NCBI GenBank assembly: GCA_000004985.1
Contig: GG738885.1
DNA from: Naegleria gruberi
Taxonomy: Eukaryota
Strand: one strand, 5' to 3'
DNA length: 64,000 nt
Below, in pieces: positions 1-41,972 of this stretch (the first letter of the stretch is position 1; every line of letters starts with the position of its first letter). Both the position numbers and the translations under genes were made by a program. A model generated the notes under the pieces. That model did not search any database and was not told the origin of the DNA. It saw only the letters and a list, made by a program, of their open reading frames with translations.

Positions 1-487
1 TCCCAAACCCAAACCCAAACCCAAACCCAAACGAAACCCAAACCCAAACCCAAACCCAAACCCAAACCCAAACCCAAACCCAAAACCCAAACCCAAACCC
101 AAACCCAAACCCAAACCCAAACCCAAACCCAAACCCAAACCCAAACCCAAACCCAAACCCAAACCCAAACCCAAACCCAAACCCAAACCCAAACCCAAAC
201 CCAAACCCAAACCCAAACCCAAACCCAAACCCAAACCCAAACCCAAACCCAAACCCAAACCCAAAACCCAAACCCAAACCCAAACCCAAACCCAAACCCA
301 ACCCAAACCCAAACCCAAACCCAAACCCAAACCCAAACCCAAACCCAAACCCAAACCCAAACCCAAACCCAAACCCAAACCCAAACCCAAACCCAAACCC
401 AAACCCAAACCCAAACCTAAAAACCCAAACCTAAAAACCCAAACCTAAAAACCCAAACCTAAAAACCCAAACCTAAAAACCTAAAAA
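1..487. repeat. Terminal telomeric repeat array (CCCAAA)n on the + strand, i.e. G-strand (TTTGGG)n running toward the left end. It becomes degenerate (CCCAAACCTAAAAA units) at the inner edge, ~420-487.
   Basis: Directly visible perfect hexamer CCCAAA repeated ~70 times from position 1, with occasional CCCAAAA/CCCAACC variants. The C-rich strand reads 5'->3' at the left edge, which is the correct polarity for a chromosome end. Confidence 0.85.
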
Positions 488-6855: not shown

Positions 6856-9800
6856 TTAAACCAACATCCTCACAGAAATACTACCTTGACTTTGTGTAGA
6901 AGTTGTATTGGCTGATTCCTGATATGAATTCTTTGATGGTAGAGAAATCATTTGAGCACGAACAGTCATTTCTACATCATCTGAAGAATTATCCTTCTCC
7001 TCCTGTGGTCTAGTTTTTCTTCTTCTTCCACAACAGCAACAAACACACGAACCCCTACGATAAATAACACCAGCAACTAGTGCAATGAAGAAGCAAGTAA
7101 TCGAAATAAAACAGGTTCCACCAATGACTGTTGAAATAATAATGATATCCTGAGTGGTGAGATAGGTCGTATTGGCAGCTTGGAATGTTCTAAGGGAAGT
7201 ATTTTTCACAACAATCACATTAGAAATGAATAAATCTGAGAATACACAATTACAATCAGTAGTTGAAGTAGCATTATTATAACCAGAAATTGAACATGAG
7301 GAGTAATCATTTCCTAGATCAGATTGAACTCTAACACATGAATAGGAAGAAATATCAAAGATGCCATAATCATCTTTAGAAACACGAATGTGGAATGTAA
7401 CATTTTGTCTCAAACCAACAGCTGTTGTGTTGGATTGAATAGAGAAACTTGTACTAACTGGAGAAACAACTACTATTGTGGAATTTTCATCCTGTTGATT
7501 AATTAACTTTTGTACAATAATTGGAATGTTTTCCTTAACCACAACTGAATAAGTTGCAGAACCAAATGGATTACTATCACTAACAAGAATATCTGGCATG
7601 GTGATATTAACAATGTTTGCTTGGTATTTTCCGTCTGTTGAGGATGGTGAGCCAATCACTGATTGAGAAAGATATTTAACATATTCCTTATCTGCCTTTA
7701 CAATGGAAACACCACTGTTTAATACTACAGCACTTGCACTTACTGGTTCTCCTTTTACAATTGTGAGAGCAAGTTTTTCAGTGAGAGCAGAAATTTCTTC
7801 GTCTCTTGCAAATTGATCTTTCAGGTTTGTAATATTTTCAGAGGCATAGACTAGATTTTCAACAACTGACATGAAAGTTTGAGTTGTCTGAGGTGGAACA
7901 CCAACATTAGTTCTGAAATTTTGTTCCACAATATTCTCAAGAGCATTCACTGATTTTTCAATGACAACTTGCCCAATATTTTGCTCATTCTTTAACATGG
8001 TGTGAATAGCATAGACAATCATTGATGAGGTTGACTCTGAGATTGTTTCTTCTGAAGTAGTTTCAGTTGCATTGGCCAATATATCTAATAAAGTTGTTTG
8101 AATATTAGTAATGGTAGTGGCACTCTTCTCAGATTCAGGTAAAGTTTGTAACATTTGATTAGTTGAAACTATGGTATTAATTGTTTGTGAAATACTTTGA
8201 CTCGAATCACCATCTTTAACAAAGGATGACATGATTGTATTGGTTTGGGTTGTAACTTGCTGAACAATCTGTGTAATTGAAGTCACCACAACACGCATCA
8301 CAGTAACATGGTAATACATAATTCTGAATTCACCTGTTTGAGTATCAGTTAATTCAACGAATATTTTGACAGTTGTTGAATTACTGGTAGAGGAACTAGA
8401 TGATGGCAGTTTCATTGTTTTTTCTTGAGTGAGAGGAATATAAATCATGATGCCTGTATCAACATCAATATAACCTTGTTTGATTTGAATGGTATTTTGT
8501 TGATTTTGACAATTTTGACATGTGAGTGTGAAATCTGTTTGCATGGAAATACCTTCAGAAGGTGAAACAGTACATGGACATTTTTGTGGTTGAGCTGCCT
8601 TTGTGAAACTGTTAGAACTTTCAGTGGAGGCAATTTCAATTTCAGAGCTTTCACTCTTTTGGACATAGGAAGCCTTAAATTGAATGGCATGTGCAACTCC
8701 TTCTTCTAATTGTTTGGAGTTTACAATAATTGCACTTTGTTCATTCTTATTTACAACTTGAATGTTTTCTGAAGTTGGTGAAATAGTAGTAATTGTGGTT
8801 AAAGAATTTGAAGCATAGGATTTGCTTGTGAAACTTTCTGAAACAACACCATTGTCAATCTTCCATTGAGACTTGACAGAAACTGAAGAATCAGTTAAAT
8901 CTTGGTTTGAATGTTGAACTTCAATAGAAATTCGACCATTGCTATTGATAATTGAGTTGGAAGTTGGTTCGACTGCAATGTAAGTTACCATTGGAGGTGA
9001 ATGAACAATATTCAAAGTAATTGAGCTTGATGTTTGTCTTTCACCTTTTGTAATTGTCAAAGTCAGCTTTGGTTTTGTAAGAGTTAGTGTTGAAAAGTCT
9101 TCTTGATTGAAAATTACAATAGAGGAGTGATTCTTTGAGTATAGAGACATCTTATCAAGAATTCCATCACCACAATACCCATTAGTTTCAGAGTTAATAC
9201 ACGTCCATTTCCAAACTTCCTTTTCGTCTACATTATTTTCAGGGTCTTCACTAGAGACTTGAATAACGTTTCTCATAGATGAAGTTTCTTTTAAAGAGAG
9301 AGAAAGTGAAAGATCTGGTTGATAGGTATTAATTATAGCAAAGTCACTAATTGTAGAAGTTTGATTGGCCACAATAATGGTTACCTTAAAGACATATTTC
9401 ACTTTTCCAGAAGCAAACTTTTCAATAATCAAATTTTGATAAGAATCTTTGTGATACCTGATGGATGGTCCTTCAATTTGCTCCCAATCAACATTGATTG
9501 CTTGATCTTTCAAATAGGTTGGCAAATAGGTAACCTTCTTAATAGAAACCAACTTATCAGTTGACTTGAAAGTATTTTGCTTTTCACCAGAAATTAGCAC
9601 AGAGGCCATTTCAACATCTTGAACTTGGAATGCAATTGTTTCAATAGAACTGTATTGGGCTGATATTTGACTCTTTACCTTCAAAATCAATGTATAAACT
9701 CCCTTAATTAATGAACCTTTTTGAATCGTAATGGTTGACAGCTTATTTGATCTAATATTGTTCAAAACTGTAGATGAAATTGAGTCACCTTGAATATCCC

Positions 9801-12800
9801 AAATATATTCCAATTCCTTCTTATCTCCAGAATAACTGTTCGAACCACTAAATATTATATCTTCATAATAACTAAATAATTTCTTTGAGGATGTAACTTG
9901 GGCAACTGGTGGCTTGACTGTTTGTGAAATGATAAAGTAAATTCTAATGTAAATTTCAATAATGGTGGTAGTAATCTTTGAGAATGCATATTTGTTAACT
10001 CTAATATTACTTGATGCTGTTAAACTAAAATCATAATCGAATTGAATCTTAAAATTACCATTTGCCTTATCAGTCCAGAAACATTTTGGCTCTGTACCAA
10101 GCAATTGCAAATCATCAGCGTGAATCAATTTGGAGCATGGAACTGTATTTGCCGTGTATGAAGGTGGAGCAAATAATTTGAGGGTAACTCCATCAAATAG
10201 TTCATTAATTTGAGCGTAAATTTCATTAATATAGGTAGAGTTGAATGATCCAAAGTATGTTGCACAATCACTTCCAAAGTAGCCATTCATACAATCATTA
10301 CAAGAAATTCCATTCCAGTAGCCATTATCTCTATCTTGATAGCAAGAGCATTTACCAGTAATATCACAATTACCATGACCATTACAAGTTGTTTGACCAT
10401 TACAATATATATCACAATTTGGCCCATAGTAATTAGTCTTACACTTTTCACAAATAAATCCATCAAAATTACCTGTACAAACACAAGTATTGTTGCTTCC
10501 ACAAGATCCACCATTCAAACAAGTTGAGACGGTACAAGATCTCTCAGTACATGTTGGACCAGTGTAGGCAGGATGACATGTATTACAATCAGATCCATAA
10601 TAATGACCATTTACATCATCATTAACACATGAACAAGTATTGACATCTACACATTGACCATGTCCTGAACAAACATTAGAGCTACTCTTTGAAATAGAAT
10701 TACAATCAAATTGATCACACTTTTCACCATAGTATCCTGAATTACATATGCATCCTGCTACGCCACTTGTAGAATTGATAAAACATTTACCATGATTTGA
10801 ACAAACTCTAAAATCAGTACTTGAGTAATAATCTTCAACGCCATTATAAATACCTCTACAGAGTAAGTTTTCACAAGAATCGCCTGTAATCTTGACTCCA
10901 GAAATTGACAAGCAGGAACACTTATCAATATCTAAACAAGTACCTCTTCCTGAACAAACCTTTGCATCTGTAGAAGAAATGCCATAACAAGTTTTATCTT
11001 GACAGGCTTGACCTCCGTATCCGAACTGACATGTGCATTTTCCATCACTGGAACATTTACCCTTTCCACTGCAAACAGTTGGATCATCTTGTCTCTTTCC
11101 ATTGCAACTTGTAATATTGCATTTATATCCAAAGAATCCATTTGAGCATTTACATAAATCATTTCCAATACATTCACCATTTCCTGAACAAACTACCTTA
11201 GTTTCCAAACTGGAAATACCAAAACAGTCGAAACTCAAAGTGGTTGTAATTTCTTGCACTGTGGTGATATTTCTAATGACAAGCAAATTATCAATAGCGA
11301 GCTCAGTAAATTGGCAATTACATTTCACAGTAGAAGTTTGCTCATCATAACTTGCAGTACATTGCTTACCATTCAACGACATATCAGATTCTACACCAAC
11401 ACAAGAATATGTGTAAGTAATATTGGTTTGTGGTGGTAATAATGGTAGTTCTTCTACTGACATTTCAACGGTAACATTCTTTGAACTCAATTCATCCAAA
11501 ATTTGACTTGTAACGGTTGTCACATTTTCAACAATGGAGAAGCTTGTACTCACAGAGGACACAACTTCAACAGTGGTGGTAGTGGTAAGTGAGGTTTTAA
11601 TATTTTGAACAATTGTTGTTACAGAGCTGGAAATTGTGGAATCGACAAGCATTGCAGTATTTTCCTCTATTGTCACAGAATAGGTCATTGATGTGAAGTG
11701 ATTATCTTTAGACATAGATTCAATAGCTGGAATGCTGATATTTACAGAAACATCATTTCCAGAAGTGGAAATTGTAGAGTTTGAAAAGTCTGTCAAGTAA
11801 ACCTTGTCAACTACGACAGTTAAGGTTGATGTCTGTAAAATAACAGGATCTGCACTCACAGGTTGTTCAATTACAATGGAGGTAGCAAGATTTTTTGTAA
11901 GAGATGAAACCTTCTCCAAGCTATTGAACTGGGTATTAGTGTTTGTAATATTTTCAATGTTTGTGTAGAGAGTTTCAATAACAGTCAGGAAAGTTTTAGT
12001 CGTTTCTGTTGTTATTTCTACTTGACTCTTTGTAGCTTGTTCAATTGTATTATCCAAAATGGAAATTGATTTATCAATCACGACTGGGTCAAGATTTACT
12101 TCATTCTTTACGATTGATTGAGCAGCATAGACAACCAATGATGTAGTAGTTGCTGTGATAGTTTCAGATATTGTTTCTGTTACAGTTTCCAAAGTATTTA
12201 AAAGATTAGTTTGAATATTTGTAACTAAAGTTGAGCGCTTAGCAGCTTCAGGTAAAGTTTGCAACATTTGATTGATTGAAACTATGGTATTAACAGTTTG
12301 TGAAATACCTTGACTAGAATCACCATCTCTATTGAAATTAGAAATAATTTCACTTGTTTGATTTCTGACTTGTTGAATAACATCAGTCATTGAAGTGGCT
12401 TCAACAGTAGCAACAGTAACATTAGTGTACATCATCCTAGATTCTCCTGTCTTTGTATCAGTTAATTCAATAAACAAGGTCATGGTTTCATTTCTTTGAG
12501 TAGTCAATTGAGAATCTGTAGAAACCAATGCAGGAATTCTCATCACATTGTCTTCATTGAGTGGAACTGGAATTTTAGTATTTGTTTCCTTATCAATATA
12601 ACCTTGTGTAATTTCAATACTGTTTTGTTCGTTTTGACAATTTTGACATGTGAGTGTGAAATCAGTTTGCATGGAAACACCATTCGAAGGTGAAACAAAA
12701 CATGGACATTTTTGTGGTTGAGTTGCCTTTGCGAAATTTGTTGAACTTTCAGTTGACGCAATTTCAATTACTTCTGGAGAGCCATCAATCAAGTTGGATT

Positions 12801-15800
12801 CATTCTTTTGGATATACGAAACTTTCAATTGAATGGAGTGGTCAACTAATTCTTCTAAACCTGCTGCATTAATGATAATTGCACTTTGCTCATTCTTATT
12901 CACAACTTGAATGCTGCTGGACGCTGAGGTCACGGTAGTGGTTGTGGTAATTTGAGAAGTTGTGGTCGATTGCAATGTTGAGGTTTCACTTTGTGAAATT
13001 CCAGTTTCGTCAACTTTCCATTCAGTTTTTACAGAAATGGTAGTATCTGTCAAATCTTGTGAAGATTTTTGAACTTCAATTGAAATCTTATCATTACTAT
13101 TGACAACTTTTGTTGCTACTGGCGAAATTCCAATAATACTAAGAATTGGAGGAGGATGAACAATATTCAAAGTAATGGAACATGAAGCCTTTCTTTCTCC
13201 TTTTGTAATTGTTAAAGTCAACTTTGGTTTTGTAAGAGTTAGAATTGAAAAGTCAGTATAGTTTGCATTTACTACAGCAGCACGATTCTTAGAGTAGAGA
13301 GCTAACTTATCTGTAATACCATCACCACAATAACCATCTGTTTCAGAATTAATACACGACCATTGCCATAACTCAGTTTCGTCTGTGTTGTTTTCTGGAT
13401 CTTGATAATTGACTTGAATTGTTGATGAATAATTAGTCACACTCTTCAATGAAAGATAAAGTGAGAGTTCAGGTTGTTCAGTGTTAATTATCACATAATC
13501 ACTTGATGATAAACTTGAATTTTGTGCAGCTGTAATAGTAATCTTGAAAACGAATTTCCACTTTCCCTTTATGAAACTGTCAATGATCAAATTATTGTAA
13601 GCGTCCTTCTTGAAAGAAAGGGATGGACCTTCAAGTTGTTCCCACTCAATGCTCACAGATGAACCACTTATATAATCTGGAATGGTTGTTGTCTTTTTCA
13701 CAAGTACCAACTTTTCAGTTGACTTGTAAGTTGTTTCCTTATTTCCTGATACAGACACTGAAGGAACGGCATATCCCTGAATTTGGAAACTGAAACTTTC
13801 TTTTGAACTCACTTCATTAGTAACCTTACTTCTCACAATTAATAAAACCTTATAAACTCCAGGAAGTAAATAACCCTTATCAATCTTAATAGATGGTAAC
13901 TTGTTTGCTTGAACCTTGTTTTTAACAATTGCTGGAATGTTATTTCCTTGAATATCCCAAGTATAATCCAATTCCTTCTTATCTCCAGAATAACTGTTAG
14001 TACCACTAAATGCCAAATCCTCGGTTGTGGAATAAACTTTCTTTGTGGATTTAACTTTGGCTACTGGAGGTATTACAGTCTTGGAAAGAATAAAGAAAAC
14101 GGATATGTAATATTCATTGAGAATGGTTGTAGTCGTTGAGAAAATGTAACTATTCAATCTGAAACTGTTACTGCCAGATGACAAATCAAAATCATTATCG
14201 AAATCAAATTGAATGGTAAAGATACCATTTGCCTTATCGGTCCAGAAACATTTAGGTTCTGATCCAAATAATGAAAAATCATCTGGATGAATAAGTTTCG
14301 AACATGTGACCGTATTTGCAGTATAAGTAGACGGAGCAATCAACTTGAATGTAATTGCGTCATAGTAATCAGAAACCTGAGCATAAATATTATCAACTAG
14401 AGTTGAATTGTAAGAACCAACATAGGTCAAACACTTAGTTCCATAATAATTATTTCTACAATAGGCGCATGAAGTTCCATTCCAGTAACCATTGGAGGTA
14501 TCTACATAACATGAACACTTGCCAGCACTTGTGCAACTCCCATGACTATTACAAAATGTTTTAGGATTACAATAAATATCACAATTAGATCCGTATTGAT
14601 AGGTTTTACAACTTTCACAAAGTAGTCCAGTAAAGTTTCCAACACAATTACAAATATTATTGACACATGTTCCTCCATGTAAACAGGTGGAATTGTTGCA
14701 ATATCTTGTCAAACAATTTGCACCAGAGTATGCAGGATGACATGAGCTACATGTTGATCCAGAATAGAAACCTTTAGTGCTATTACTATAACATGAACAA
14801 CTGTTAATTCCAGTGCAAGAACCATGTCCAGAACAAACATTTGTATCATTGTTGGCTAATCCATAACAATTGAATGCTCCACAGTATGTTCCGTAATATC
14901 CTGAATTACATTGACATTTACCTTCAAGAGTTGTTGCATTAATTACACACTTTCCGTGATTTGAACAAGCTCTATAATCAGTGGTAGCGAAATAATCTTC
15001 AACACCATTGTAAACTCCTCTGCAAAGTAAGTTTTCACATGTACTTCCTGTAATCTTGACATTGGTGTTATTAAATACATAACATTGACATTTGTCAACA
15101 TCAACACAAACACCTCTTCCTGAGCAAACATTTGGATCCAAAGATGTTTTACCAAAGCATGTTTTAACTTGACAATCTTTACCTCCATATCCATAAGAGC
15201 ATTGACAATGACCATCTTCAAAACATTTTCCTTTTCCACTGCAAACAGTTGGATTATCTTGTCTCTTTCCATTGCAACTTGTAACATTACATTTAGATCC
15301 AAAGAATCCATTTGAGCATTTACATAAATCATTTCCAATACATTCACCTTTTCCTGAACAAACAACTGTATCCTCAAGGCTTGAAATACCAAAACATGTG
15401 TATTCTTCCATTTCTACTACTTCTTCAATTATGGTTGTTACATTTCTAACAACTACAAGATTTGAAATTTGGAGTTGATTAAAAATACAATTACACTTGA
15501 CACTTGAAGTTGATTCATCATATTCTGCAGTACAATTGTGTGATTCGAGTGACATATTTCCTGTGTTTACACCCATACATGAATAAGAAGAAGAGAATTC
15601 AATGAAATCTCCAGAGTCAACCAACATTTCAATTGACACATTTTGAGAACTCATCAATTGGTTTGCTACTGAACTTTCTGATGTTTCCATGATTGAGAAT
15701 GATGTAATGACAGGAGAAGCAATTTGTAATGTGGTGGTGTTTGTAATATTTGTAAGAATTTGTTGCAAAATAGTTGAAGAATATTCCTCAACAACCATAG

Positions 15801-18800
15801 AGTAAGTTATTTCAACATATTCCGTTTCCATAGTTATAAATGATGGAAGGCTGATATTCACAAGAATAGTTTTGTTTACACTTTCCATTTCTGTGGTTAT
15901 GGATGAAATGACAGAGTCTGAGAGATCGGTAAAATAAATCTTGTCAACTTGGATAGATAAAGAAGAAGTTTGTAAAACAATTGGATCAGCACTCACTGTT
16001 TGCTCCTTAACAATTGAATAAGCTAGGTTTTCAGTCACATTAACCAATTGATCATAAATATTGAGTTGTTCAAGGGTTGATGTAATATTTTCAACACTAC
16101 TTTGCAAATTCTCAACAATTGACATTACAGTTTGACTTGTTTCAGTTGAAATTTGAAGATTACTCTTCACTGCTTGATCAACTACTTCATTCAAAATAGA
16201 AATTGATTTATCAGTAACTACTGGAACAATAATTTCATCGCTCTTAATCACAGAATAAACAGCATAAACAACCATTGATGAAGTTGACTCAATTGAGGTT
16301 TCCACTCTTGTAGTTTCCACAGCACTTGCAAGTGTACTAAGAAGTTGAGTTTGAATTTTAGTAATTGTTTCAGAATCTTGATGTTGAACTTGTGGTAAAC
16401 TTTGCAACAATTGACTTGTTGAAACGATTGTATTAACAGTTTGTGAAATACTTTCAATTGGATTACCATCTTGAATGATAGCTGAAATGATTTCGGTTGT
16501 TTGATTGGAGACCTGTTGCCAAATCTCTTCGGTTGTGTTTACCACAACTGTTGTCACTGTTATATTTGTATACATGGTTCTTGATTCTCCAGATTCTGTA
16601 TCAGTCAATTCAACAAACCATTTAACAGGTGCAGCTTGTGGAGTATTTGAACTAGAGGATACCACAGCAGGGATTTTAACAGTATCCTCCTCTGAGATTG
16701 GTACTTGAATTTTGATTCCAGTTTCACTATCCACATATCCTTGGGTGATTTCGATGGTATTTTGTTCATTTTGACAATTGACACATGAAACTTTGAATTC
16801 TGTTTCCATAGAAACACCATTAGAAGGTGTAATGCTACATGGACATTTTTGTGGTTGAGTTGCCTTTGTAATTGTTGTTGAACTTTCGGTAGAAGCAATT
16901 TCAATTTCTTCTGGAATACCATTAACAATATTAGATTCATTAGTTTGAACATACGAAACTTTCAATGCAATAGTTTTTTCAGTTCCTTCATCAAACTCCC
17001 TGGCATCAATAATAATAGCGCTTTGTGTATTCTTACTAACAACTTGAACATAACTTGAAGTTGATAACATTGTTGTGGTTGTTGAAAAAGAATCTGTTGA
17101 TTCTATTCTTGTAGTTTCACTCTCAGAAACAATGGAAGTGTCAATCTTCCATTCAGTTTTAATAGAAAGTGATGAATCTGATAAATCCTGTTTTGAGTGA
17201 GAGACTTCAATGGAAAACTTCTCATCACTATTGACAACAGATTTAAAGTCTGGAGAAATGTCAATAATATTGAGAATTGGAGGTAAATGAACAATATTCA
17301 AAGTAATGGAACATGAAGCCTTTCTTTCTCCTTTTCTAATGCTTAGAGTAAAAGTTGGTTTCTGTAAAGTTGATAAGGAAAAGTCAGATTTGTCAACTAT
17401 GAAGAGAGTTGAATGGTTCTTGGAATGGAAAGACATTTTGTCTACAACACCATCTCCACAATAACCATCTGTTTCAGAATTAATACACGACCATTGCCAT
17501 AATTCAGTTTCGTCTGTGTTGTTTTCTGGATCTTGATAATTGACTTGAATTGTTGATGAATAATTAGTCACACTCTTCAATGAAAGATAAAGTGAGAGTT
17601 CAGGTTGTTCAGTGTTAATTATCACATAATCACTTGATGATAAACTTGAATTTTTTTCTGGAGTAATTGAAATTTTGAAAACATATTTAAAAGCTCCCTT
17701 AGTGAAACTTTCAATAATCAAATTATTGTAAATATCCTTCTTAAAATCAACATTCGGACCTTCAATTTGTTGCCATTCAATATTCATAGTTTCATTCTTC
17801 AAATAATCTGGAATTGTAGTTGTCTTTTTGATATGAACCGGCTTTTCAGTTGACTTTTGCCTAATTTTCTTACTTCCGTAAATACTAACTGAAGGAACTT
17901 GATATTCTAGAATTTGTAATGTGAAAATATTAATCAAACTCACTTCACTAGTTACTGTACTTCTCACAACTAGTGTCAACTTATAAATTCCCAATTTTAG
18001 CAAACCCTTATCAATCTTAATGGTTGCTTGCTTGTTGGATTTTATGAAATTTTCAACAGTAGAATTGATAGAGTTTCCCTCAATGCTCCAAGTATAATCC
18101 AGTTCTTTCCTATCTCCAGAGAAGGAGTCTGATCCACTAAATATCATATCTTCTGTTTCACTATAAATTCTTTTTGATGACTTCACATCAGCAACTGGAC
18201 TTTTTACAGTATTTGGAGGCATTAAATAAATAATAGTGTCATCTACGATGGTTCTTGTAGAAAAAGCTCCAAGTTTGTTCAATCTTCTTGTAAGTGTAGT
18301 AAATAGATTTCTGTTCACTCTAAAATGGTTTCCTATGACTGACGAAGAGTTTAGAGTAAAATCATAATCGAATTGAATCTTGAAATCACCATTTTCCTTA
18401 TCAATCCAGAAACATTTAGGTTCTGTGCCGAATAATGGTTGATCATCGATGTAAATGAGTTTTGAACATGGAACAGTGTTTGGTAAATAGGAAGGTGGAG
18501 CAAATAGCTTAAATATCACACCATCAAAGAAATCAGTAACTTGAGAATAAATTTCATTGACATAGGTAGAGTTGAATGATTCAAAATGGGCAAAACAATC
18601 GCTTCCAAAGTAACCATTTTGGCATGAGCTGCATGAGCTACCATTCCAGTAACCATTCTTGGTATCTGAGAAACAAATACATTGGCCATCGGATCCACAT
18701 TGGCCATGTCCATTACATGTTGATTGACTATTACAATAGACATTACATTGTGATCCATAACTATTGGATTTACAAGTTTCACAAATCAATCCAGTAAAGT

Positions 18801-21800
18801 TTCCAATACAATCACAACTATTATCAGTTCCACAAGACCCACCATTCATACAAGTTGAACCAGTACATGTTTTAACATTACAATTTGCACCAGTATATGC
18901 AGGATGGCAAGTGTTACAATCAGATCCAGAATAGAAACCATTAGTACTATCACTATAACATGAGCAGGTGTTAATTCCAACACAATCACCATGTCCTGAG
19001 CAAACATGTGAGTTATTCTTGGCAATTGAGTTGCAATTAAACATTTCACACTTGTCTCCGTAATATCCCGCAGCACAGGAACATCCTCCTGTTGAACAGT
19101 TACCGTGCTTTGAGCAAACTCTAAAATCATTGCTTGAATAAAAATCTTCAACGCCATTGTAAACTCCTTTGCAAAGTAAGTTTTCACATTCATCACCAGT
19201 AATCTTTACACTGATGCCATTTGATGAAAAACATTGACACGTGTCAATATCAACACAAACACCTCTTCCTGAGCAAACATTTGGATCCAAAGATGTTTTA
19301 CCAAAGCATGTTTTAACTTGACAATCTTGACCTCCATATCCATAAGAGCATTGACAATGTCCATCTTCAAAACATTTTCCCTTTCCACTGCAAACAGTTG
19401 GATTATCTTGTCTCTTTCCATTGCAACTTGTAACATTACATTTAGATCCAAAGAATCCATTTGAGCATTTACATAAATCATTTCCAATACATTCACCTTT
19501 TCCTGAACAAACTACTGTATCCTCAAGGCTTGAAATTCCAAAGCATTCATAAGTTTGGACTATAACAGCAGTATTCAATGAACAGTCTGCTCCAAAGTAT
19601 CCAGCTGTACAATTACAATTATTTAATGAAGGACAATCACCATGTCCACTACAGACCTGTGATGAATTATATTGAACTCCAGCACATGTGTGGAATTCAC
19701 ATTCAATTCCAAAATATCCGGCATTACATGTACATTTATCCACTTGAGAGCAATTACCACGATTTAAACAAGCGCCATTTAGACCTTTTCCAAAACAAAT
19801 TGGTGATGAACAATCTGCACCTGCCCAATTTTGATTACATGTACAATTGTTTGGAGAGTTACATTGACCATGTGAGGAACAAACTAGTGATGAGTTTGAA
19901 AGAATATTGAAACATTTAGGGAGAGCACACCAATCTCCTCCATACATAGCGTTGCATTGGCAAATACCACCCACACAAGTACCATTAGATGAACATACTG
20001 ATGGGTCATCCTTTGAAATGCCATTACATTTGAGTAGTTGACATTGGTTTCCTTCATAATTAGGAGAACAGGAACATGTATCAACACCAGAACATACCCC
20101 CCAGAACAAACTGATGTTTCGTTTGACAAAATTCCAAAACAGTTTGGATATTGACATTGTGAGCCTCCAAAGTTTGAGTTACATTGACATGAATCCAATC
20201 CAACACATGAACCATGGGAATTGCAAACAGATGAATTGTTTTGTAAAGTTCCATAACAAGTTGTAATTGAACAATTAGATCCATAATAATTTGAAGAGCA
20301 AGTACAAGAGTTGTAATCAACACATGAACCATGCTCAGAACAAACTGATGTTTCGTTTGACAAAATTCCAAAACAATATGGATATTGACATTGTGAGCCT
20401 CCATAGTTTGAGTTACATTGACAGGAGTCCAATCCAACACATGAACCATGGGAATTGCAAACAGATGAATAGTTTTGTAAAGTTCCATAACAAGTTGTAA
20501 TTGAACAATTAGATCCATAATAATTTGAAGAGCATGAGCACGAATTATAATCCATACAAGTACCATGTCCTGAACAAACACTAGAATTGGTTTTTGCTAC
20601 ATAGTAACAATCAAAAATTTCACAGTTAAATCCATAGTAATTTAAGGAGCATGAACAAGTATTAAATGTTGAACATGCACCATGTCCTGAACAAACCTGA
20701 CTTGAATTAGAATAGACTCCATTACATGTTGTTACTGAGCAATTGGCTCCATAATAATTCGATGAGCAGCTACAGGAATTATATGCTGTGCAAGTGCCCT
20801 GATTAGAACAACCAGTAGTAACAGAGTTTGAATATCCATTACATGTCCAAGAAGAACAATTTGAATTAGAATAACCAGTTGCACAGGTGCATGTGTTAAT
20901 GGCTGTGCAGGTACCATGGGAATTGCAAACTGAAATGTCATCAGATCTTTTGGAGTAACAATAGGGTAGATTACAATAACTTCCACCATAATTTGCATCA
21001 CACGTCATGTAAATTTTTCTGAGTTCATCACTTTCTGCAATTAACATCAAGTTGTTATCGCTGGCAAAAGTCAAACCTACAAGTGTATTGAACTTGGTAT
21101 TAGCCAGAGTTTCTCCATCATTATATGTTCCAGCACTATTACCAGCATATGACGTTATTGTACCAGTGTTAGCATTGGCAGTTGCAGGTGTGAAAAGTTT
21201 AAGAGCACCACTCTCAGTGTAGTATACATTACCGTTGTCGTTTACATAAAAGTCTTTGATGGTTACAGAAGAGGTCTTAATTAAGTTAGTTTAACTAGTT
21301 CAATAAAACTTACAGTAAAACGTGTTGCGACTGTTGAAGCAGTGAAAACTTTGAGATAAAACGTTGAACCGATTTGTTGAAAGTAATATATCTTTCCATC
21401 TGACGGTCTTATTGTAAAAGAAACTAAAAGAATTAAATGAAAAGAGAATATCAGATAACTTACATAGTGTTGCAATATTTGCTGATGATGATGCACCATC
21501 AGAAGTGGAGGCACCCCCTCCCAAAACAACTACAATCTTTCCAGTTGATGAGCTGATTTTGTAAATATAGTTGTCTGATGCAAAATAGATCTCACCATTG
21601 TAATATTGTAAATTTTTGGCATTCTAGAATAAAATTGGATATTCATTTCAAAGCAATAGAGAAAAAATACTTACAGTAATAGTACAAGCAGTTGGAGTGT
21701 TTCCATTAACACAATCTGATCCAGAAGCTGCGCCAGCTACTATTGTAACTAAACCCGTGCTCTTTGACAGTAATTTGAGAAAAAATCCAGGTGAATAATT

Positions 21801-24752: not shown

Positions 24753-25898
24753 TTAATCATTCTTTTGATACATGACAGCATATTCATTTTGTTTGACAGC
24801 TTCCCCAACAACCTCAGAATCATTTTCCAATGTTTTAGAGGCAAACCGAATTGCAAGACCTTGCTGTCTAACAGCACAAAGTACAACTTCTCTATCATTG
24901 GTCAAATTATAACTGGCATACTGGAGTGAAAGTCCATTTTGATTAACAGCAGTCAGCACAACCTCTCTATCTTCTAGAAATCTAATTCCAGCTCCATAAA
25001 GCGATTTTCCATTCACCTTAACAGCTTCTATCACAAAATCTCTATCGAGTCTTAGCTGTTGAGCAAACGATAATGCTGTACCATAGTTTCTGATTGCCTC
25101 TAACACAATCTCTCTATCATTTTTCAACTCGTTACTAGCCAGGCCCAGATAAGCTCCATTAATTTGTACTATTTTCAGTATAAATTCTCTATTGTTCCTC
25201 AATGATTCAGTGGCATAATGCAATGCTGTTTCATTTCTAGATTTTTCGTGTTGGTTATTGTCAATTTGGCAGGCCATCAACACAAGCTCAGCATCTCCTC
25301 TTAGATTAGTTGATAAATATTCTAGTGCTCTTCCTCCCGTTTTTCGAATAGACAATTCTGCTATTTCTCTATCATTTCTCAATTCTTCACTAGCAAACTT
25401 CAATGCCTCACTGTTGCCATAAGTGAGAGCACATTTTAATATTTCTTTATCATTTTTCAATTCATCCGAAATGTTTGCATATGTATCAGGATAATATTCC
25501 ATTAATTTCTTTACAAAATATCTATCATTCCACAATCCTAACAAATCGGCATAAACTGATGGATTTTTAGCTTCTTCCAATATAGAATCTAATATAAATC
25601 TCTTATCTTTCACAATGTCTGGCATTGAAACTGCAAAGAAATAATCAAAATTAACTCCATGCTCATTTTCAAATATTTCCATAACTTGTTTTCCTTCAGA
25701 GATAATTTCTTCATCATCATATTCCTCATCAAAATCTTCATCTTCCGAATCATCATCCTCCTGAGCCAAATATAATTTTACAAGATTTTCCAAAGTTTCC
25801 CAAATGTAGAGTTGTTTATCTTTAATGTCTCTCATCTTGTTCATGAGAAAATGTGAAAGTTGGTGATTGTACTGATCTAGAACAATGATTGTTGCCAT
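24753..25898 (-). CDS. DUF4116-repeat protein with an acidic N-terminal region
   Basis: Intronless 381-aa ORF with tandem ~30-aa repeats (..L.NDREVVL.AV.QNG.AL.YAS..L..D.E.V..AV..N) typical of DUF4116. Confidence 0.6.
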   Translation of the reverse strand: MATIIVLDQYNHQLSHFLMNKMRDIKDKQLYIWETLENLVKLYLAQEDDDSEDEDFDEEYDDEEIISEGKQVMEIFENEHGVNFDYFFAVSMPDIVKDKRFILDSILEEAKNPSVYADLLGLWNDRYFVKKLMEYYPDTYANISDELKNDKEILKCALTYGNSEALKFASEELRNDREIAELSIRKTGGRALEYLSTNLRGDAELVLMACQIDNNQHEKSRNETALHYATESLRNNREFILKIVQINGAYLGLASNELKNDREIVLEAIRNYGTALSFAQQLRLDRDFVIEAVKVNGKSLYGAGIRFLEDREVVLTAVNQNGLSLQYASYNLTNDREVVLCAVRQQGLAIRFASKTLENDSEVVGEAVKQNEYAVMYQKND

Positions 25899-25948: not shown

Positions 25949-27123
25949 TCAATGTTGGGTGATTTTAAAAACTTCAATTTCAGCAACCTGAAATGTGCTA
26001 CTTCCAGCCAAATAACTTTTAGCTTCCTCACTTCCATATTGTAATCCAATTGGTAGCTCAAAAGTATTTCCAAAATCAGAACTTGACAATACAGTTGAAA
26101 TGTCAAGGTCAACATCTCCAAATCTAGGTAAATAATTCTTACAAAGACAAATGGCATATTGTTTCTGATTTTGCTTAAAATTGAACTTTTCTAAATGATA
26201 TTTTCCACTAAAATCTTTTACAATTTTAAAAATAAATGCAGATTCATCTGAAACATATTCACCTAATAAGGAATGTGGGGATTTCCAGGATCGAGAGGTA
26301 AAGGCACCAAATATTTGATTGTGTTTTGCTGATTTGATAATTGTCAATGTTGGTCCTTGTAAGTCACATTTCGAATGAAAATGTTTCGAATGGAATCCAT
26401 CTCTAGTTCCTCTATACAATAATTGAGGAATTGCAATGCTGCAAGTATGGGAACATAATTCACTTGACACTGAACAATCACATTCGTTAATAATTATGGA
26501 AGAAACTAATCCAAAATAAACATTTGTTTTGATATTAGTGAGCGAGCATTTGTCGAAAATAATTCCACTCAAATCTTGTGATTGCAGATCAATATTATCA
26601 AATTGAATATTTGCAATATGTTTGTTTGAAAGTCCATTAAAATCAAATAAACATCTGTCAAATTTCAATCCGTTAAAATTTGACAAATCTTTCAAATTTC
26701 GTAAATCTGAATTCTTGATTGTGCAATTATTAAATGAATTATTGGTTGAGTGAAGAATAATTTTAAAATCAATTTCCTCAAATATTGATCCATTGAAATC
26801 GCATTCAATGAATTTACAATTTTGTAAAACTTTTTCCTTTGTAAAGTGAATTTGAATTTTGCATTTTGTAAATTTTGCATTTTCAAATTTAGATTTCTTT
26901 GTAATTGTGTTTGTGAAATTAACATTTTCAAAATTGGAATTTGAGAAACAAGCACTTAAAAAGTTTGAATCTGAAAAGTTGCAACCATTTGAATTACAAT
27001 TAATGAAATATGACTTGGAAAAATCTAATTTTGACAGGTTACTGTTTTGTAATTGCACTTTCTCAAATGTTGTGGAAATAAACTTGGCTTCTTCAAATTT
27101 ACATTGTTCCAAACATGTTTCCA
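25949..27123 (-). CDS. C-terminal half of a pentapeptide-repeat + TLDc-domain protein. It is probably the same gene as 27124..28457, separated by a 1-nt frameshift.
   Basis: ~230 aa of pentapeptide repeats (NFS.SNF....F..) followed by a TLDc domain (LLYRGTRDGF..HFHSKCD..GPTLTIIKS....IFGAFTS..W). Its ATG shares one base with the upstream stop (TAATG), and the upstream ORF ends inside the same pentapeptide-repeat array. Confidence 0.6.
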
Positions 27124-28457
27124 TTAAAAATGCATTAGAAAGTCAGTATTCTTCAAATTGGCGTTTGACAAGTTGCATTCACTCAATTCACAATTTTGGA
27201 AATTAGCACCTGCCAAATCACAATTACTGAAATCACATCCTCTCATCGTGCTTCCTTTAAAATTACACCCTCTTATATTCATTCCACTAAAATTACAACA
27301 ACTCAATTTTGAATTTTCCAAATTTGTTTTCTGAAGAAGGAAATTCCTCATATTCACTCCATTCAAATTCAAACTCAAATCACCTCCAGCAAACACATTT
27401 GAAAGTCTAATCAAGTCAAGTTGTGAATTGAGTAATTGTTTTTCCAAATTTGTCAATTGAAATAATTGACAGGCATCAACGAGTCCATGTTTCATTTCTT
27501 TCAAATCAATAATTCCAAATCTTAACCAATCCAAAATGTGTTTGAATACGACTGGATCACAATTAATGAAATAAACATCATCTTTGAATGATGTACAAGG
27601 TGTTTGATATAGCGGATGTTGACCTGTCAACATTTTCTTGAATAAATTGTCAGGTTCTCTCTCGTTATGAAGTAAATCACCTAAGGAGACTGTCAAGATT
27701 GTTCCACCAACATTTAAAGGAATTGGTTTGTTGCTGGATTCGAATATTTCTCTTTGCAATTTTTCCTTTTCAAACTTTTCAATTAGTTTTTGTAAATCTT
27801 GATCTTTTGATTCAAATTCTTGAACTAGTTCAGCTCTTTTAACTTGAAATTCACTATTTGTCTGATTGATCATCTGTTCATGTTCTGTCTTGAATTTATT
27901 CATCAAATCTTGATATTTCCTTTCCAATCCAATTTTCCTTTTTTGAAATTCTTCTTCCAAATTAACTTTCAATTCCTCAACTTGTTTATAAGCATCCAAC
28001 AGTGGACAATACCTTTCCTGATGATCTTTCAATTGTCCTCTCTGCACTCCACCCTTACACATCGAACATTGCACTTTCAATTCATCCAACTTGTTCAAAA
28101 TATATTTGGGAACTGCCAATGAATTCTGTTTCAAATCATTTCCTCGACAAAGTGGACATTTATCAACTTTATCGATAATGCACTTGGAACAGAACATTTG
28201 ACCACATTCAGAATGCATGATTGGATCAATGAATGGATATTTACAGATGGAACATGTTAAATCTTGATCAATATTGTGTAAATCGAGATAAAGTCATGGT
28301 TTGGTTGATTAGTTTCGGAATATTCAATTCTTGAAAATTCATCGTAATTGATTTGTTTTTCAGGGTTGGTAGATGAAATGGTTGGATTGTTGTAGTTCGA
28401 ATCTTCATAAAACGTGCGAGAAAGTTTATCATTTGACAGTTGTGGTTGTTCAGACAT
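27124..28457 (-). CDS. RING/zinc-finger + coiled-coil + BTB/POZ (T1/KCTD-type) + pentapeptide repeats: the N-terminal part of a KCTD9-like/TLDc fusion protein
   Basis: ORF 27124..28218 contains the Cys/His cluster CSICKYPF..HSECGQMFCSKC..CPLCRG, a long coiled coil, the BTB T1 signature PIPLNVGGTILTVSLGDLL..DPVVFKHILDWLRFG, then pentapeptide repeats up to the stop. An upstream in-phase-shifted ORF 28257..28457 (MSEQPQLS..) probably supplies the true N-terminus via another 1-nt frameshift near 28230-28260. Confidence 0.55.
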
Positions 28458-29087: not shown

Positions 29088-30625
29088 AGCTTTCTTCTTT
29101 GCTTCTCTAAGGGTCTTTCCTTCCTCTTTCTTTCTTTTCTGTTTTTCTTTTTCTGCTTTTTTTTCTAGTGCTGTTACCATATAGTCGTTGCGTGTTAGTA
29201 CAAAGTTAGTTTTCACTCTGGTTTTTTCTTTGGTTTGTTTTGGTGGTTCATGTAATAAATTTCCAAATTTGGAAGGTGGTTTTTCATCTTGATTACTATT
29301 TTTGGAATGTTGAATTTTGGCAAGTGCTGACTTCTTATCAAGTGGTATAATACAAGCTTCTTTGAATCCACTAACAATATTATGATGGGNNNNNNNNNNN
29401 NNNNNNNNNNNNNNNNNNNNNNNNNNNNNNNNNNNNNNNNNNNNNNNNNNNNNNNNNNNNNNNNNNNNNTCTTATAAATGTTTCTAATGATAATAGTTCA
29501 GTTTCGTTTACCAAATCTGTCTTGTTTAGAATGATAACATTAGCAAGTTCAATCTGATCAAGTAATAAATCAACTACTCTTCTCTCATCTGTTTCACTTG
29601 CTGCCATATTTCTGGATTTAAGACTTGCCTTATTTGACTCATTTTCAATTTGACAACCTGTCATGTAATCTTTCATGAAGCTGAATGAATCAACAACGGT
29701 GACAAGAGTATCTAATTTGGTATAATCTGAAAGCATCTTTCCATGCATATCTTGAAAGAAGAAAGTTTGAGCTATTGGAAGTGGTTCAGCAATTCCAGTT
29801 GACTCAATTAAGAGATAATCAAATTTTCTTTGGTAAGCAAGTTTACCAACCTCTTGAAGGAGGTCTTCTCTAAGATTACAACAAATACATCCATTCTAAT
29901 TTGAAAATTACATATTACCCATATTAGGAAATACTTACTGACATTTCAACCATTTTCTCATCTACACGTGACAGGGAGCTTTCTTGATTTACCAACTCTG
30001 CATCAATATTTATCTCACTCATATCATTAACAATCACAGCAACCTTCAATCCTTCCTTATTTCTCAAAATATGATTAAGGAGAGTTGTCTTTCCACTTCC
30101 AAGAAATCCACTCAATACAGTGACTGGTAATTTCTTTTCAAAAGTTTCCACAACTTGATCAGATGCCTTTCCCATAATACTGAACGAATCCTTTCCTTTC
30201 TTTTCAATGAAACTTGTCAAATCTTCTTTCATGTTCATTAAGGTTTTGTGTTGAGGTTGAATTTTCAATCCCTTATCACAATGTTCAATTGCCTTCTCCA
30301 AGTTTCCAGAAACAGAATAAGCAACTGCTAATCTAAAATAAGGTTGCACCCAATTAGGTTTTAATTCAATTGCTTTTAAGGAATCTTCAATCGCCTTTGC
30401 ATATTCCTTATTTAGTATATAAGATAATGCTCTTAAATCATAAACGAATGAACTGTTACCGAATGATTTCAATGCTTTGGTGAATTCTTGAATTGCTTTT
30501 TCGTATTCCTTTTCGTTTAGAAATTTACTTCCATTTTCAATGCACAATTGACCAAAATCATGTTCTTCTTGTGTGAGTTGAGAGGTGTTACAATTGTCAT
30601 CATTACCTTGATTCAATAAAGACAT
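29088..30625 (-). CDS. TPR-repeat + CobW/COG0523-family P-loop GTPase (CobW N- and C-terminal domains)
   Basis: Exon 1 (30625..~29939) carries TPR repeats, then Walker [20 protein letters not shown] 43-nt GTAAGT..TAG intron lies at ~29896-29938. Exon 2 carries GCICC..R.DL and [15 protein letters not shown]. An 80-N gap (29390-29469) interrupts the CDS. The CobW_C-like region plus a Lys-rich tail resumes at 29389 and runs to the stop at 29085-29087. Confidence 0.65.
29390..29469. other. Assembly gap (80 N) inside the CobW gene
   Basis: Run of n. Confidence 0.99.
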
Positions 30626-41546: not shown

Positions 41547-41972
41547 TTGAGATTAGGTTTAGAATAGAGATAGTTCTGTAATTTTTGAAGAATATGGAAG
41601 ATAGATGAGAGAATATTTGTAAAATAATTTATTAATAAATCAATTGAAAACTGTAGATTTACAATTGTTGTGTTGCCAAATAATTCAAATAAAGCAATGA
41701 AGGTTTCGGAAAGTCAACCGAAACTATGTGAGAAAGTCCATCAATTAAGAAAACTCTTTACAAAACAAATATTGAGATGGAATGCATTCCCTACCCATTC
41801 TGCAAATCAAGGTTACGAAAACACAATATTCTGCAATCAACATCCATTCAAAGATCTGAGAATTTCTTAAAAGGAAAGATTCTCTGATTGACGGCTGCCA
41901 ACAGTCACAGAAATCAATAAAAGCAATTAAATTGGGTCCATCTCTCGCTTTTTAAAATCCAACCATCAGTTT

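What the first reader, a model, noticed from the sequence alone, without database searches (positions are those of the whole stretch)
25949..28457. RING-coiled-coil-BTB(T1)-pentapeptide-repeat-TLDc fusion gene broken at an overlapping TAATG stop/start
ORF 27124..28218 ends in the middle of a pentapeptide-repeat array (..CNLSNANLKNTDFLMHF*). ORF 25949..27123 starts with more of the same repeats (METCLEQCKFEEAKFISTTFEKVQLQNSNLSKLDFSKSYF..) and ends in a TLDc domain. The stop and the start overlap by one base, TAATG at 27121-27125, inside a T5 run. One extra T gives the continuous reading ..DFLMHFLMETCLEQ... A second frame break near 28230-28260 separates a further N-terminal ORF (ATG 28457) from the RING-like Cys/His cluster. 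The reconstructed ~820-aa protein is a KCTD9-like protein (BTB plus pentapeptide repeats) extended by an N-terminal RING/TRAF-like zinc finger plus coiled coil and a C-terminal TLDc. I do not recognise this combination from any described protein.
Basis: partly seen in the sequence, partly recalled or inferred. Interest (0 to 1): 0.55.

Follow-up and report, generated by a model that had tools for sequence, protein, structure and literature searches.

The report
Frame-broken Naegleria RING-BTB-pentapeptide-TLDc gene
The three ORFs are one Naegleria gruberi gene, already in databases as the mis-modelled NAEGRDRAFT_80657, from an amoeba-specific family of probable ubiquitin ligases; its frame is broken twice by a missing T, more likely a draft-assembly error than a real mutation.

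Summary
On the minus strand, ORFs 28457-28257, 28218-27124 and 27124-25949 join into one 836-aa reading if one base is added at TTT 28292-28290 and one in the T5 run 27130-27126. Pentapeptide, TLDc and BTB_2 pass Pfam cut-offs. The RING misses every Pfam cut-off, but a family profile and an AlphaFold model both match LNX1/2 and TRAF6 RING-zinc-finger structures.

The window is Naegleria gruberi. The public model NAEGRDRAFT_80657 (685 aa) is reproduced exactly by starting inside the RING and splicing out 212 nt. That "intron" encodes repeats homologous to paralog coding sequence, so it is an annotation workaround.

The architecture is not a one-off. Intact paralogs exist in N. gruberi, N. fowleri (one uninterrupted 3300-nt ORF) and N. 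lovaniensis. Willaertia has a RING-BTB-TLDc version. No paper describing the family was found.

Splicing cannot repair site 1, and programmed frameshifting is unsupported. A third one-base frame break, in a G6 run, hits a neighbouring giant gene in the same gap-bounded subtelomeric contig. I therefore favour consensus errors (about 55%) over recent inactivating deletions (about 35%). Reads are needed to decide.

Probable function: an oligomeric RING E3 ligase with a beta-helix/TLDc recognition end. Modest interest.

The parts
28290..28457 (-). N-terminal segment in frame A: ATG at 28457, 56 codons up to Phe TTT 28292-28290. Low-complexity leader before the RING.
   Evidence: ORF 28457..28257. 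It is the only ATG-started frame that runs into the RING frame. Similarity to the P0007 N-terminus is weak (E=0.08). All intact paralogs have 30-60 residues before the RING motif.
28290..28292 (-). Frame break 1: T3 run (gacTTTatc). One extra base gives ..NHDF|YLDLHNIDQDLTCSIC..
   Evidence: The RING frame is closed by TGA 28296-28294 and frame A stops at 28259-28257. No GT-AG intron can join the two frames while keeping the first RING Cys at 28254 (0 candidates).
28144..28254 (-). RING-type zinc finger (repaired residues 69-105), C-x2-C-x9-H-x2-C-x4-C-x2-C-x7-C-x2-C. Gln sits where the canonical C-x-H histidine would be.
   Evidence: Pfam RING models score only 17-18 bits, below cut-offs. The family profile A2 hits LNX2 5din at 1e-18, LNX1 at 4e-17 and TRAF6 at 1.5e-12. 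Foldseek on the AF2 model gives the same top hits.
28006..28068 (-). TRAF/LNX-type C2HC zinc finger after the RING (C-x2-C-x11-H-x4-C).
   Evidence: C75, C78 and H90 are invariant and C95 nearly invariant in A2. The region aligns to the C-terminal zinc finger of LNX2/LNX1 and to TRAF6 ZnF1.
27736..28005 (-). About 90 residues forming a single long helix (coiled-coil segment).
   Evidence: AF2 model: helix at fragment residues 96-185, pLDDT about 95.
27487..27720 (-). T1/KCTD-type BTB domain.
   Evidence: Pfam BTB_2 27.9 bits against a cut-off of 21.4. Family BTB profile A4 hits KCTD1 at 2e-7, KCTD15 at 6.5e-7 and KCTD9 at 5e-5. The AF2 confidence is low here.
26540..27345 (-). Pentapeptide-repeat (beta-helix) array running across frame break 2. 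Limits are approximate.
   Evidence: Pfam Pentapeptide E=9e-33 and Pentapeptide_4 E=3e-24. PDB hits to designed and natural pentapeptide-repeat proteins down to 7e-20. Register and length are kept across the break relative to P0002.
27122..27130 (-). Frame break 2: T5 run 27130-27126 followed by an overlapping stop/start, TAA 27126-27124 and ATG 27124-27122. One extra T gives ..DFLMHF|LMETCLEQ..
   Evidence: Paralog tblastn alignments switch from frame -2 to frame -1 here.
26971..27182 (-). The 212-nt 'intron' of the public model NAEGRDRAFT_80657 (GTGAAT..TTTTCAG, length = 2 mod 3). Judged an annotation workaround.
   Evidence: Removing it and starting at ATG 28218 reproduces P0001 exactly. 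Its two reading frames encode pentapeptide repeats that align with coding sequence of P0002, P0005 and P0006. N. fowleri P0005 is an uninterrupted 3300-nt ORF.
25961..26503 (-). TLDc domain (repaired residues 653-833). Stop codon at 25951-25949.
   Evidence: Pfam TLD 79.1 bits against a cut-off of 24.5, E=5e-22. Conserved with paralogs.

Best explanation
Window 28457-25949 (minus strand) is a single intron-less gene of Naegleria gruberi, the locus annotated as NAEGRDRAFT_80657. It belongs to a family seen here only in Naegleria and Willaertia.

Domain order in the repaired 836-aa reading: short leader, LNX/TRAF6-type RING plus C2HC zinc finger, about 90 residues of coiled coil, KCTD/T1-type BTB, a pentapeptide-repeat beta-helix of variable length, and a C-terminal TLDc domain.

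In this assembly the frame is interrupted twice. Each break is a one-base deficit in a T run (T3 at 28292-28290, T5 at 27130-27126). I think these are more likely base-calling or consensus errors of a draft Sanger contig than real mutations, at roughly 55:35. On that reading the organism makes the full 836-aa protein.

Inferred mechanism (not shown here):
- The RING-ZnF recruits an E2~ubiquitin.
- The coiled coil and BTB make the protein an oligomer. The BTB may also dock Cullin-3, as KCTD proteins do.
- The beta-helix and TLDc end selects the partner or substrate. The V-ATPase is the one precedent for TLDc domains.

The TAATG stop/start overlap is a by-product of the frame slip. The ATG is an internal Met codon, not a coupled restart.
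For: One gene, N. gruberi:
- P0001 (NAEGRDRAFT_80657) is reproduced exactly from the window.
- Paralog and ortholog alignments run continuously from frame -2 into frame -1.
- The N. fowleri homolog is one uninterrupted ORF.

Domains: Pfam, RING-ZnF profile against PDB, AF2 plus Foldseek, BTB profile against PDB.

Family.

Not an intron at site 1: 0 GT-AG solutions.

Favouring artefact:
- A third one-base deficit, in a G6 run at 20102-20097, breaks the neighbouring EGF/REJ/PKD gene. It leaves 4,440 downstream codons open.
- All three breaks lie in the one contig bounded by N gaps (5418-29389), about 1.1 to 9.3 kb from its end, next to a telomere.
- A scan found none in the other 32-kb contig.
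- There are no in-frame stops anywhere in the 836 codons.
- The N. gruberi reference is a single Sanger draft assembly (PMC9928731).

Mechanism precedents: KCTD9 is BTB plus a pentapeptide beta-solenoid and is predicted pentameric (PMC9658877). TLDc domains bind V-ATPase (PMC8608904, PMC9263379, PMC11066047).
Against: - No reads, traces or second assembly of this locus could be reached, so artefact versus real mutation is unresolved.
- A T3 run is not a classic error hotspot, and Sanger consensus at good depth rarely has indels.
- The gene is subtelomeric and sits in a multi-copy family where several N. gruberi models are truncated (P0004, P0035, P0036, P0007). That fits birth-and-death evolution with pseudogenes.
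- It departs from otherwise invariant family columns at 21 of 171 positions, against 7-20 of 109-162 for the other six. The changes include H154L and H247P.
- E3 activity, oligomer state and partners are all inferred. The RING lacks the canonical His and fails the Pfam cut-offs.
Confidence: 0.55

Rival explanations
1. The frame breaks are real. This is a very recent pseudogene, or one null allele of a heterozygous locus, in a subtelomeric and fast-turning-over gene family. It was inactivated by two single-base deletions in T runs.
For: - The breaks are in the deposited assembly, and the annotators had to work around them.
- The gene lies 26-28 kb from a telomere.
- Other family members in N. 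gruberi look truncated.
- A second N. fowleri copy next to P0005 also changes frame.
- This gene has 21 departures at 171 otherwise invariant positions, in the upper range for the family.
- Homopolymer slippage is the commonest spontaneous indel (established knowledge).
Against: - There is no in-frame stop or other lesion in 836 codons.
- It would need two independent deletions here plus a third in the neighbouring 4,900-codon gene, whose 4,440 downstream codons remain open. All three would have to be extremely recent.
- The departure count is not exceptional: P0007 has 20 of 113.
Confidence: 0.35
2. The public gene model is right. Translation starts at ATG 28218 and a real 212-nt intron (27182-26971) is spliced out. 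The product is a 685-aa BTB-pentapeptide-TLDc protein without a working RING.
For: GT..AG ends, and a length of 2 mod 3 that restores the frame. Repeat number varies among paralogs, so a shorter array is tolerable.
Against: - The start falls inside the RING, after its first Cys pair.
- The 'intron' is coding-like in two frames and homologous to paralog and ortholog CDS.
- The donor GTGAAT differs from the one genuine intron seen in the window, which has GTAAGT.
- 125 frame-restoring GT-AG pairs exist by chance in this repeat DNA.
- The N. fowleri homolog is intron-less.
Confidence: 0.05
3. Programmed -1 ribosomal frameshifting at the two T runs produces the full-length protein from the sequence as given.
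For: Both breaks need the same -1 shift and both sit on Phe TTT codons. At site 2 the next codon is a stop (T TTT TAA). There is weak downstream folding at site 2 (z=-2.0).
Against: - Neither site is an X XXY YYZ heptamer.
- Site 1 has no following stop codon and no structure (z=+1.3).
- None of the intact paralogs or orthologs has a shift at either place.
- A third break of the same kind sits in an unrelated gene at a G6 run.
Confidence: 0.02

Closest known systems
NAEGRDRAFT_80657 (N. gruberi, 'TLDc domain-containing protein', 685 aa; P0001)
   Same: It is the same locus. The model's sequence is reproduced exactly from the window.
   Different: The model starts inside the RING at Met 28218, omits the 28457 leader and the first Cys pair, and removes 70 codons of repeats as an 'intron'. 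The repaired reading is 836 aa.
Intact Naegleria paralogs/orthologs P0002 (927 aa), P0003 (710 aa), P0005 (N. fowleri, 1099 aa), P0006 (N. lovaniensis, 929 aa)
   Same: Same domain order from RING to TLDc, 34-41% identity over more than 70-90% of the query. The RING-ZnF, BTB and TLDc blocks are conserved.
   Different: They have continuous frames and different numbers of pentapeptide repeats. Most have Asn where this gene has Gln at the canonical RING His position.
Human KCTD9
   Same: A T1/KCTD-type BTB directly followed by a pentapeptide-repeat beta-solenoid (PMC9658877). The family BTB profile hits KCTD9 5bxh at 5e-5.
   Different: KCTD9 has an N-terminal ubiquitin-like domain, no RING, no coiled coil and no TLDc. 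The BTB profile is closer to KCTD1 and KCTD15. The resemblance is one of architecture, not orthology.
LNX1/LNX2 and TRAF6 RING-zinc-finger modules
   Same: A RING followed by a C2HC zinc finger, with the linker motif ..P..v.N.L..L.V.C... These are the best PDB matches by profile (1e-18 to 1e-12) and by fold. As in TRAFs, a coiled coil follows.
   Different: There are no PDZ domains (LNX) and no MATH/TRAF-C domain (TRAF). The canonical C-x-H histidine is Asn or Gln, with a conserved His three residues before that Cys.
TLDc proteins (OXR1, NCOA7, TBC1D24, mEAK7/TLDC1, yeast Oxr1p/Rtc5p)
   Same: A C-terminal TLDc domain, well above the Pfam cut-off. In those proteins the domain binds V-ATPase (PMC8608904, PMC9263379, PMC11066047).
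   Different: None of those carries RING, BTB or pentapeptide repeats. V-ATPase binding is untested here.

Membership tests
RING-type E3 ligase (LNX/TRAF6-type RING-ZnF) | Eight zinc ligands with cross-brace spacing C-x2-C..C-x-H-x2-C-x2-C..C-x2-C | tested here: inconclusive
   Seven canonical positions are present. The C-x-H histidine is Gln here and Asn in most paralogs. A conserved His lies 3 residues before ligand 3 and could substitute. Metal binding cannot be tested with these tools.
RING-type E3 ligase (LNX/TRAF6-type RING-ZnF) | Significant match to curated RING models | tested here: not met
   Pfam RING models reach 16.7-18.1 bits against cut-offs of 25-28 in this gene. They stay below cut-off in all seven relatives scanned.
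RING-type E3 ligase (LNX/TRAF6-type RING-ZnF) | Profile and fold similarity to solved RING-ZnF modules | tested here: met
   Profile A2: LNX2 1e-18, LNX1 4e-17, TRIM21 1e-14, TRAF6 1.5e-12. Foldseek: LNX2 4.7e-7 and TRAF6 1.4e-6 as top hits.
RING-type E3 ligase (LNX/TRAF6-type RING-ZnF) | E2 binding and ubiquitin transfer | not testable with these tools
   Needs in vitro ubiquitination assays.
TRAF family | C-terminal MATH/TRAF-C domain after the coiled coil | tested here: not met
   No MATH hit in Pfam. BTB_2, pentapeptide and TLD follow the coiled coil instead.
KCTD / T1-type BTB proteins | BTB_2 (T1) domain | tested here: met
   Pfam BTB_2 27.9 bits against 21.4. The profile hits only KCTD-type BTB structures, with KCTD1 at 2e-7.
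KCTD / T1-type BTB proteins | Pentameric/tetrameric assembly and Cullin-3 binding | not testable with these tools
   The AF2 monomer model has pLDDT of 45-55 in the BTB. No complex was modelled.
KCTD9 orthologs | N-terminal ubiquitin-like (KHA) domain + BTB + pentapeptide repeats, with KCTD9 as the closest BTB | tested here: not met
   The N-terminus is RING-ZnF plus coiled coil. KCTD1 and KCTD15 score better than KCTD9. KCTD9 architecture taken from PMC9658877.
Pentapeptide-repeat proteins | Tandem A(D/N)LXX repeats forming a right-handed quadrilateral beta-helix | tested here: met
   Pfam PF00805 E=9e-33. PDB matches down to 7e-20. The five-residue register is continuous across the repaired break.
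TLDc domain proteins | TLDc domain (PF07534) | tested here: met
   79.1 bits against a cut-off of 24.5, covering profile positions 4-169 of 170.
TLDc domain proteins | Binding to V-ATPase | not testable with these tools
   Known for mammalian and yeast TLDc proteins only.
Programmed -1 ribosomal frameshift site | Slippery X XXY YYZ heptamer, downstream stimulatory structure, conservation of the shift in relatives | tested here: not met
   The sites are C TTT ATC and T TTT TAA. Fold z-scores are +1.3 and -2.0. Relatives have continuous frames.
Spliceosomal intron bridging the breaks | GT-AG boundaries restoring the frame without removing conserved coding sequence | tested here: not met
   Site 1 has 0 possible introns. 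Site 2 has 125 possible, but every one deletes at least 92 nt that align to paralog CDS.
Processed/unitary pseudogene | Frame-disrupting lesions plus signs of relaxed constraint (in-frame stops, loss of invariant residues) | tested here: inconclusive
   There are two frameshifts in the assembly but no in-frame stop. Departures at invariant columns number 21/171, against 7-20 of 109-162 in relatives. Reads are unavailable.

The most novel reading that the evidence does not exclude
The Naegleria/Willaertia RING-ZnF / coiled-coil / BTB / pentapeptide / TLDc proteins form a clustered, rapidly diversifying family. Repeat number is variable, domains are swapped in some members (TLDc to RGS, or the repeats dropped), and some members are broken. 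On this reading the family acts as a TRIM/TRAF-like recognition system. The variable beta-helix reads a target such as a pathogen or prey factor, the RING ubiquitinates it, and the TLDc couples the response to V-ATPase, that is to phagosome or contractile-vacuole acidification.
Probability: 0.1. Interest if true: 0.55.

Novelty: new variant of a known kind. Interest (0 to 1): 0.3.

Why it matters
Practical value: the public model of NAEGRDRAFT_80657 is wrong, with a truncated RING and an invented intron. The same subtelomeric contig carries at least one more one-base frame break. Protein sets derived from this reference mis-state these genes.

Biological value: a lineage-specific family joins a TRAF/LNX-type RING module to a KCTD-type BTB, a pentapeptide beta-helix and a TLDc domain. 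It is a testable candidate for a ubiquitin ligase that acts on or with the V-ATPase in amoebae, a group that includes the pathogen N. fowleri. All parts are known domain types, and protists often shuffle them, so a specialist would be interested but not startled.

Tried and rejected
- Exact-product look-ups of the 391-aa ORF, P0001, P0002 and P0007 found no contigs. No independent sequence of the locus and no N. gruberi paralog DNA could be obtained.
- The search with the repaired protein found no ENA or Logan sequence of this locus.
- Literature searches for Naegleria+TLDc and for pentapeptide+TLDc+BTB returned nothing.
- Reading TAA as a sense codon (ciliate-type code) was rejected. Read-through gives non-repeat sequence, and long standard-code ORFs abound.
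- Bacterial-style stop/start coupling was rejected because the organism is a eukaryote. The sigma-70 and terminator scan is at chance level.
- Programmed frameshifting was tested by folding and rejected.
- Intron rescue was tested by enumeration.
- Counting departures from invariant family columns, as a test for relaxed constraint, was inconclusive.
- The AF2 model of the BTB part was too poor to use (pLDDT about 45-55).
- phmmer of the TLDc region against PDB gave only a chance-level hit.
- One call failed on a frame mistake of mine and was repeated correctly.
Full report
**What is in the sequence**

On the minus strand there are three abutting ORFs:
- 28457..28257, 66 aa.
- 28218..27124, 364 aa, ending ..NANLKNTDFLMHF*.
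- 27124..25949, 391 aa, starting METCLEQCKFEE.. and ending in a TLDc domain.

The stop of the second ORF and the start of the third overlap as TAATG at 27126-27122. The T5 run is 27130-27126, and its last T is the first base of the TAA.

The RING frame is closed by TGA 28296-28294, and the leader ORF's frame stops at 28259-28257. The switch must therefore lie within 28293-28260. The conserved motif YLDLHNIDQDL is already in the RING frame, which places the switch at about 28293-28288, at the T3 run 28292-28290.

Both breaks need the same correction: one extra base, which is equivalent to a -1 slip. Applying it gives an 836-aa protein.

**Is it one gene?**

Yes, on four grounds:
- tblastn of seven relatives against the window gives alignments that run in frame -2 from 28290/28293 down to about 27139. 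They continue in frame -1 from about 27178-27106 to the stop. There is no second copy in the window.
- In the protein alignment the repaired junction ..TDFLM HFLME TCLEQ CKFEE AKF.. keeps the five-residue register. It has exactly the same length as the corresponding stretch of P0002, and it aligns to N. fowleri and N. lovaniensis sequence.
- In the RING frame the first ATG (28218) lies after the first Cys pair of the RING. The gene therefore needs the 28457 leader, as all intact relatives have 30-60 residues before the RING.
- Direct similarity of the leader to the P0007 N-terminus is only weak (E=0.08).

**Whose gene it is**

The best database hit, P0001, is 'hypothetical protein NAEGRDRAFT_80657 [Naegleria gruberi]', called 'TLDc domain-containing protein' in UniProt. 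Starting at ATG 28218 and removing 27182..26971 reproduces P0001 residue for residue. That removed stretch is 212 nt, has GTGAAT..TTTTCAG ends and a length of 2 mod 3. The window is therefore the N. gruberi reference, a single Sanger assembly of strain NEG-M (PMC9928731).

The window begins in (CCCAAA)n telomere repeats, so the gene is subtelomeric, 26-28 kb from the chromosome end.

The public model works around the second break with an 'intron' and simply drops the N-terminus. I judge that intron spurious for these reasons:
- Its 212 nt read as pentapeptide repeats in the two frames on either side of the break.
- Those repeats align to coding sequence of relatives.
- The N. fowleri homolog P0005 is one uninterrupted 3300-nt ORF.
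- The donor is unlike the one clear intron in this window, GTAAGT..AG at about 42435-42475.
- 125 frame-restoring GT-AG pairs occur by chance in this repeat DNA, and each removes at least 92 nt of conserved sequence.
- At site 1, no GT-AG intron at all can join the frames.

**Domains**

| Region | Evidence | Result |
|---|---|---|
| Pentapeptide repeats | Pfam PF00805 | E=9e-33, above cut-off |
| TLDc | Pfam PF07534 | 79 bits vs 24.5, above cut-off |
| BTB | Pfam BTB_2 | 27.9 bits vs 21.4, above cut-off |
| RING | Pfam RING models | below every cut-off, here and in all seven relatives scanned |

The RING was settled by other means. A profile of 36 N-terminal modules (A2) hits solved structures of RING plus zinc-finger modules:
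- LNX2 at 1e-18.
- LNX1 at 4e-17.
- TRAF6 at 1.5e-12.
- RAG1, RNF125 and SIAH1 as further hits.

An AlphaFold2 model of residues 57-346 (pLDDT 70-80 in the RING-ZnF) gives the same top Foldseek hits. It also shows a single 90-residue helix with pLDDT about 95, which is the coiled coil.

The ligand pattern is unusual. The canonical C-x-H histidine is Gln here and Asn in most relatives, while a His three residues before that Cys is conserved.

A BTB profile hits only KCTD-type BTB structures: KCTD1 at 2e-7, KCTD15 at 6.5e-7 and KCTD9 at 5e-5.

**The family**

phmmer of the RING-to-BTB part against 1.84 billion representatives gives 999 hits with E<=0.001. Most hits cover only the RING-ZnF module. 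Hits covering RING through BTB, wherever a source name could be looked up, come from Naegleria and Willaertia magna.

The family is modular:

| Architecture | Examples |
|---|---|
| RING-CC-BTB-pentapeptide-TLDc | P0002, P0003, P0005, P0006 |
| RING-CC-BTB-TLDc | P0037, Willaertia P0069 |
| RING-CC-BTB-pentapeptide-RGS | P0071 / NAEGRDRAFT_59210 |
| BTB-pentapeptide | P0143 |

In N. fowleri, several members carry nearby locus tags on one contig. A second copy lies 4 kb from P0005.

A TLDc-only search found no pentapeptide+TLDc protein outside Naegleria. No paper mentioning these combinations was found.

**Are the breaks real?**

This cannot be settled without reads, and none were reachable.

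Programmed frameshifting is unlikely:
- Neither site is a slippery heptamer.
- Downstream folding is weak at site 2 (z=-2.0) and absent at site 1 (z=+1.3).
- Relatives have continuous frames.

A scan of the whole window was informative. It looked for long open stretches that overlap in different frames, and each candidate was then inspected. It found one more true frame break. The giant EGF/REJ/PKD gene (21290..6859) changes frame at a G6 run, 20102-20097. One added G restores the EGF periodicity ..ETSVCSGG|VCSGVDTCSCS... This is again a one-base deficit in a homopolymer.

Points favouring local consensus errors:
- All three breaks lie in the single contig bounded by N gaps (5418-29389).
- None was found in the neighbouring 32-kb contig.
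- 4,440 codons remain open after the G6 break, and the 836 codons here have no in-frame stop.
- If the breaks are real, three deletions in two unrelated genes must all be extremely recent.

Points favouring real lesions:
- The location is subtelomeric.
- The family turns over quickly and has several truncated members.
- A T3 run is a poor candidate for a base-calling error.
- This gene shows somewhat more unique substitutions at otherwise invariant columns: 21/171, against 7-20 of 109-162 in relatives.

I put the odds at about 55% artefact, 35% real pseudogene or null allele, and 10% for everything else.

**How the intact protein most likely works (inferred)**

- The LNX/TRAF6-type RING-ZnF recruits a ubiquitin-charged E2.
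- The coiled coil and the KCTD-type BTB make an oligomer. KCTD BTBs are typically pentameric and many bind Cullin-3. KCTD9 pairs such a BTB with a pentapeptide beta-solenoid (PMC9658877).
- The variable beta-helix and the TLDc domain provide the recognition end.
- The only established TLDc partner is the V-ATPase (PMC8608904, PMC9263379, PMC11066047). A ligase acting on or at the V-ATPase is therefore the most concrete hypothesis.

None of these steps was tested here.

**Verdict**

However, this is an already deposited, mis-modelled member of a family so far seen only in Naegleria and Willaertia, not a unique fusion. The 'broken gene' aspect is probably an assembly artefact, or otherwise a young pseudogene. 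Interest is modest, at 0.3.

Noticed in passing
window 6859-21290 (-), break at 20102-20097: A giant EGF/teneurin-EGF + REJ + PKD gene of about 4,900 codons changes frame at a G6 run. One added G restores the EGF repeat pattern (..ETSVCSGG|VCSGVDTCSCS..). It is the same kind of one-base deficit as in the finding gene, and it lies in the same contig.
   Followed up: partly
window 2-477 and 989-1366: (CCCAAA)n arrays of about 78 and 63 copies, separated by a 50-N gap region. The window starts at a chromosome end with a TTTGGG-type telomere. Large N gaps follow at 1902-3491 and 4599-5417.
   Followed up: partly
window 24753-25898 (-): A 381-aa protein made of nine DUF4116 repeats (Pfam E=8e-94). 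It starts only 50 nt after the finding gene's stop codon, so the genes are very tightly packed.
   Followed up: partly
window 29380-30625 (-), gap 29390-29469: A TPR + CobW/G3E GTPase gene is interrupted by an 80-N assembly gap. This marks the end of the contig that carries all three frame breaks.
   Followed up: partly
window ~42435-42475 (+): A genuine short intron (GTAAGTAG...TTTTTAAG, about 41 nt) joins ORFs 41931-42434 and 42431-43483. The gene contains a LysM-like stretch. It was used only as an example of a real N. gruberi splice site.
   Followed up: partly
L001 17370-18885 (N. fowleri VFQX01000027.1): A second family member lies 4 kb downstream of P0005. It changes frame (3 to 1) near 18269-18340, is annotated as two small genes, and has no TLDc match within the locus. 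It is either a broken copy or an assembly error.
   Followed up: partly
window 28144-28254 (-) and alignment A2: In this RING family the canonical C-x-H histidine is usually Asn (Gln in this gene). A His three residues upstream of that Cys is conserved. This may be a shifted zinc ligand.
   Followed up: partly
window 56446-59013 (-): An 855-aa ORF with Cys/His-rich stretches and no obvious identity. It was not examined.
   Followed up: no
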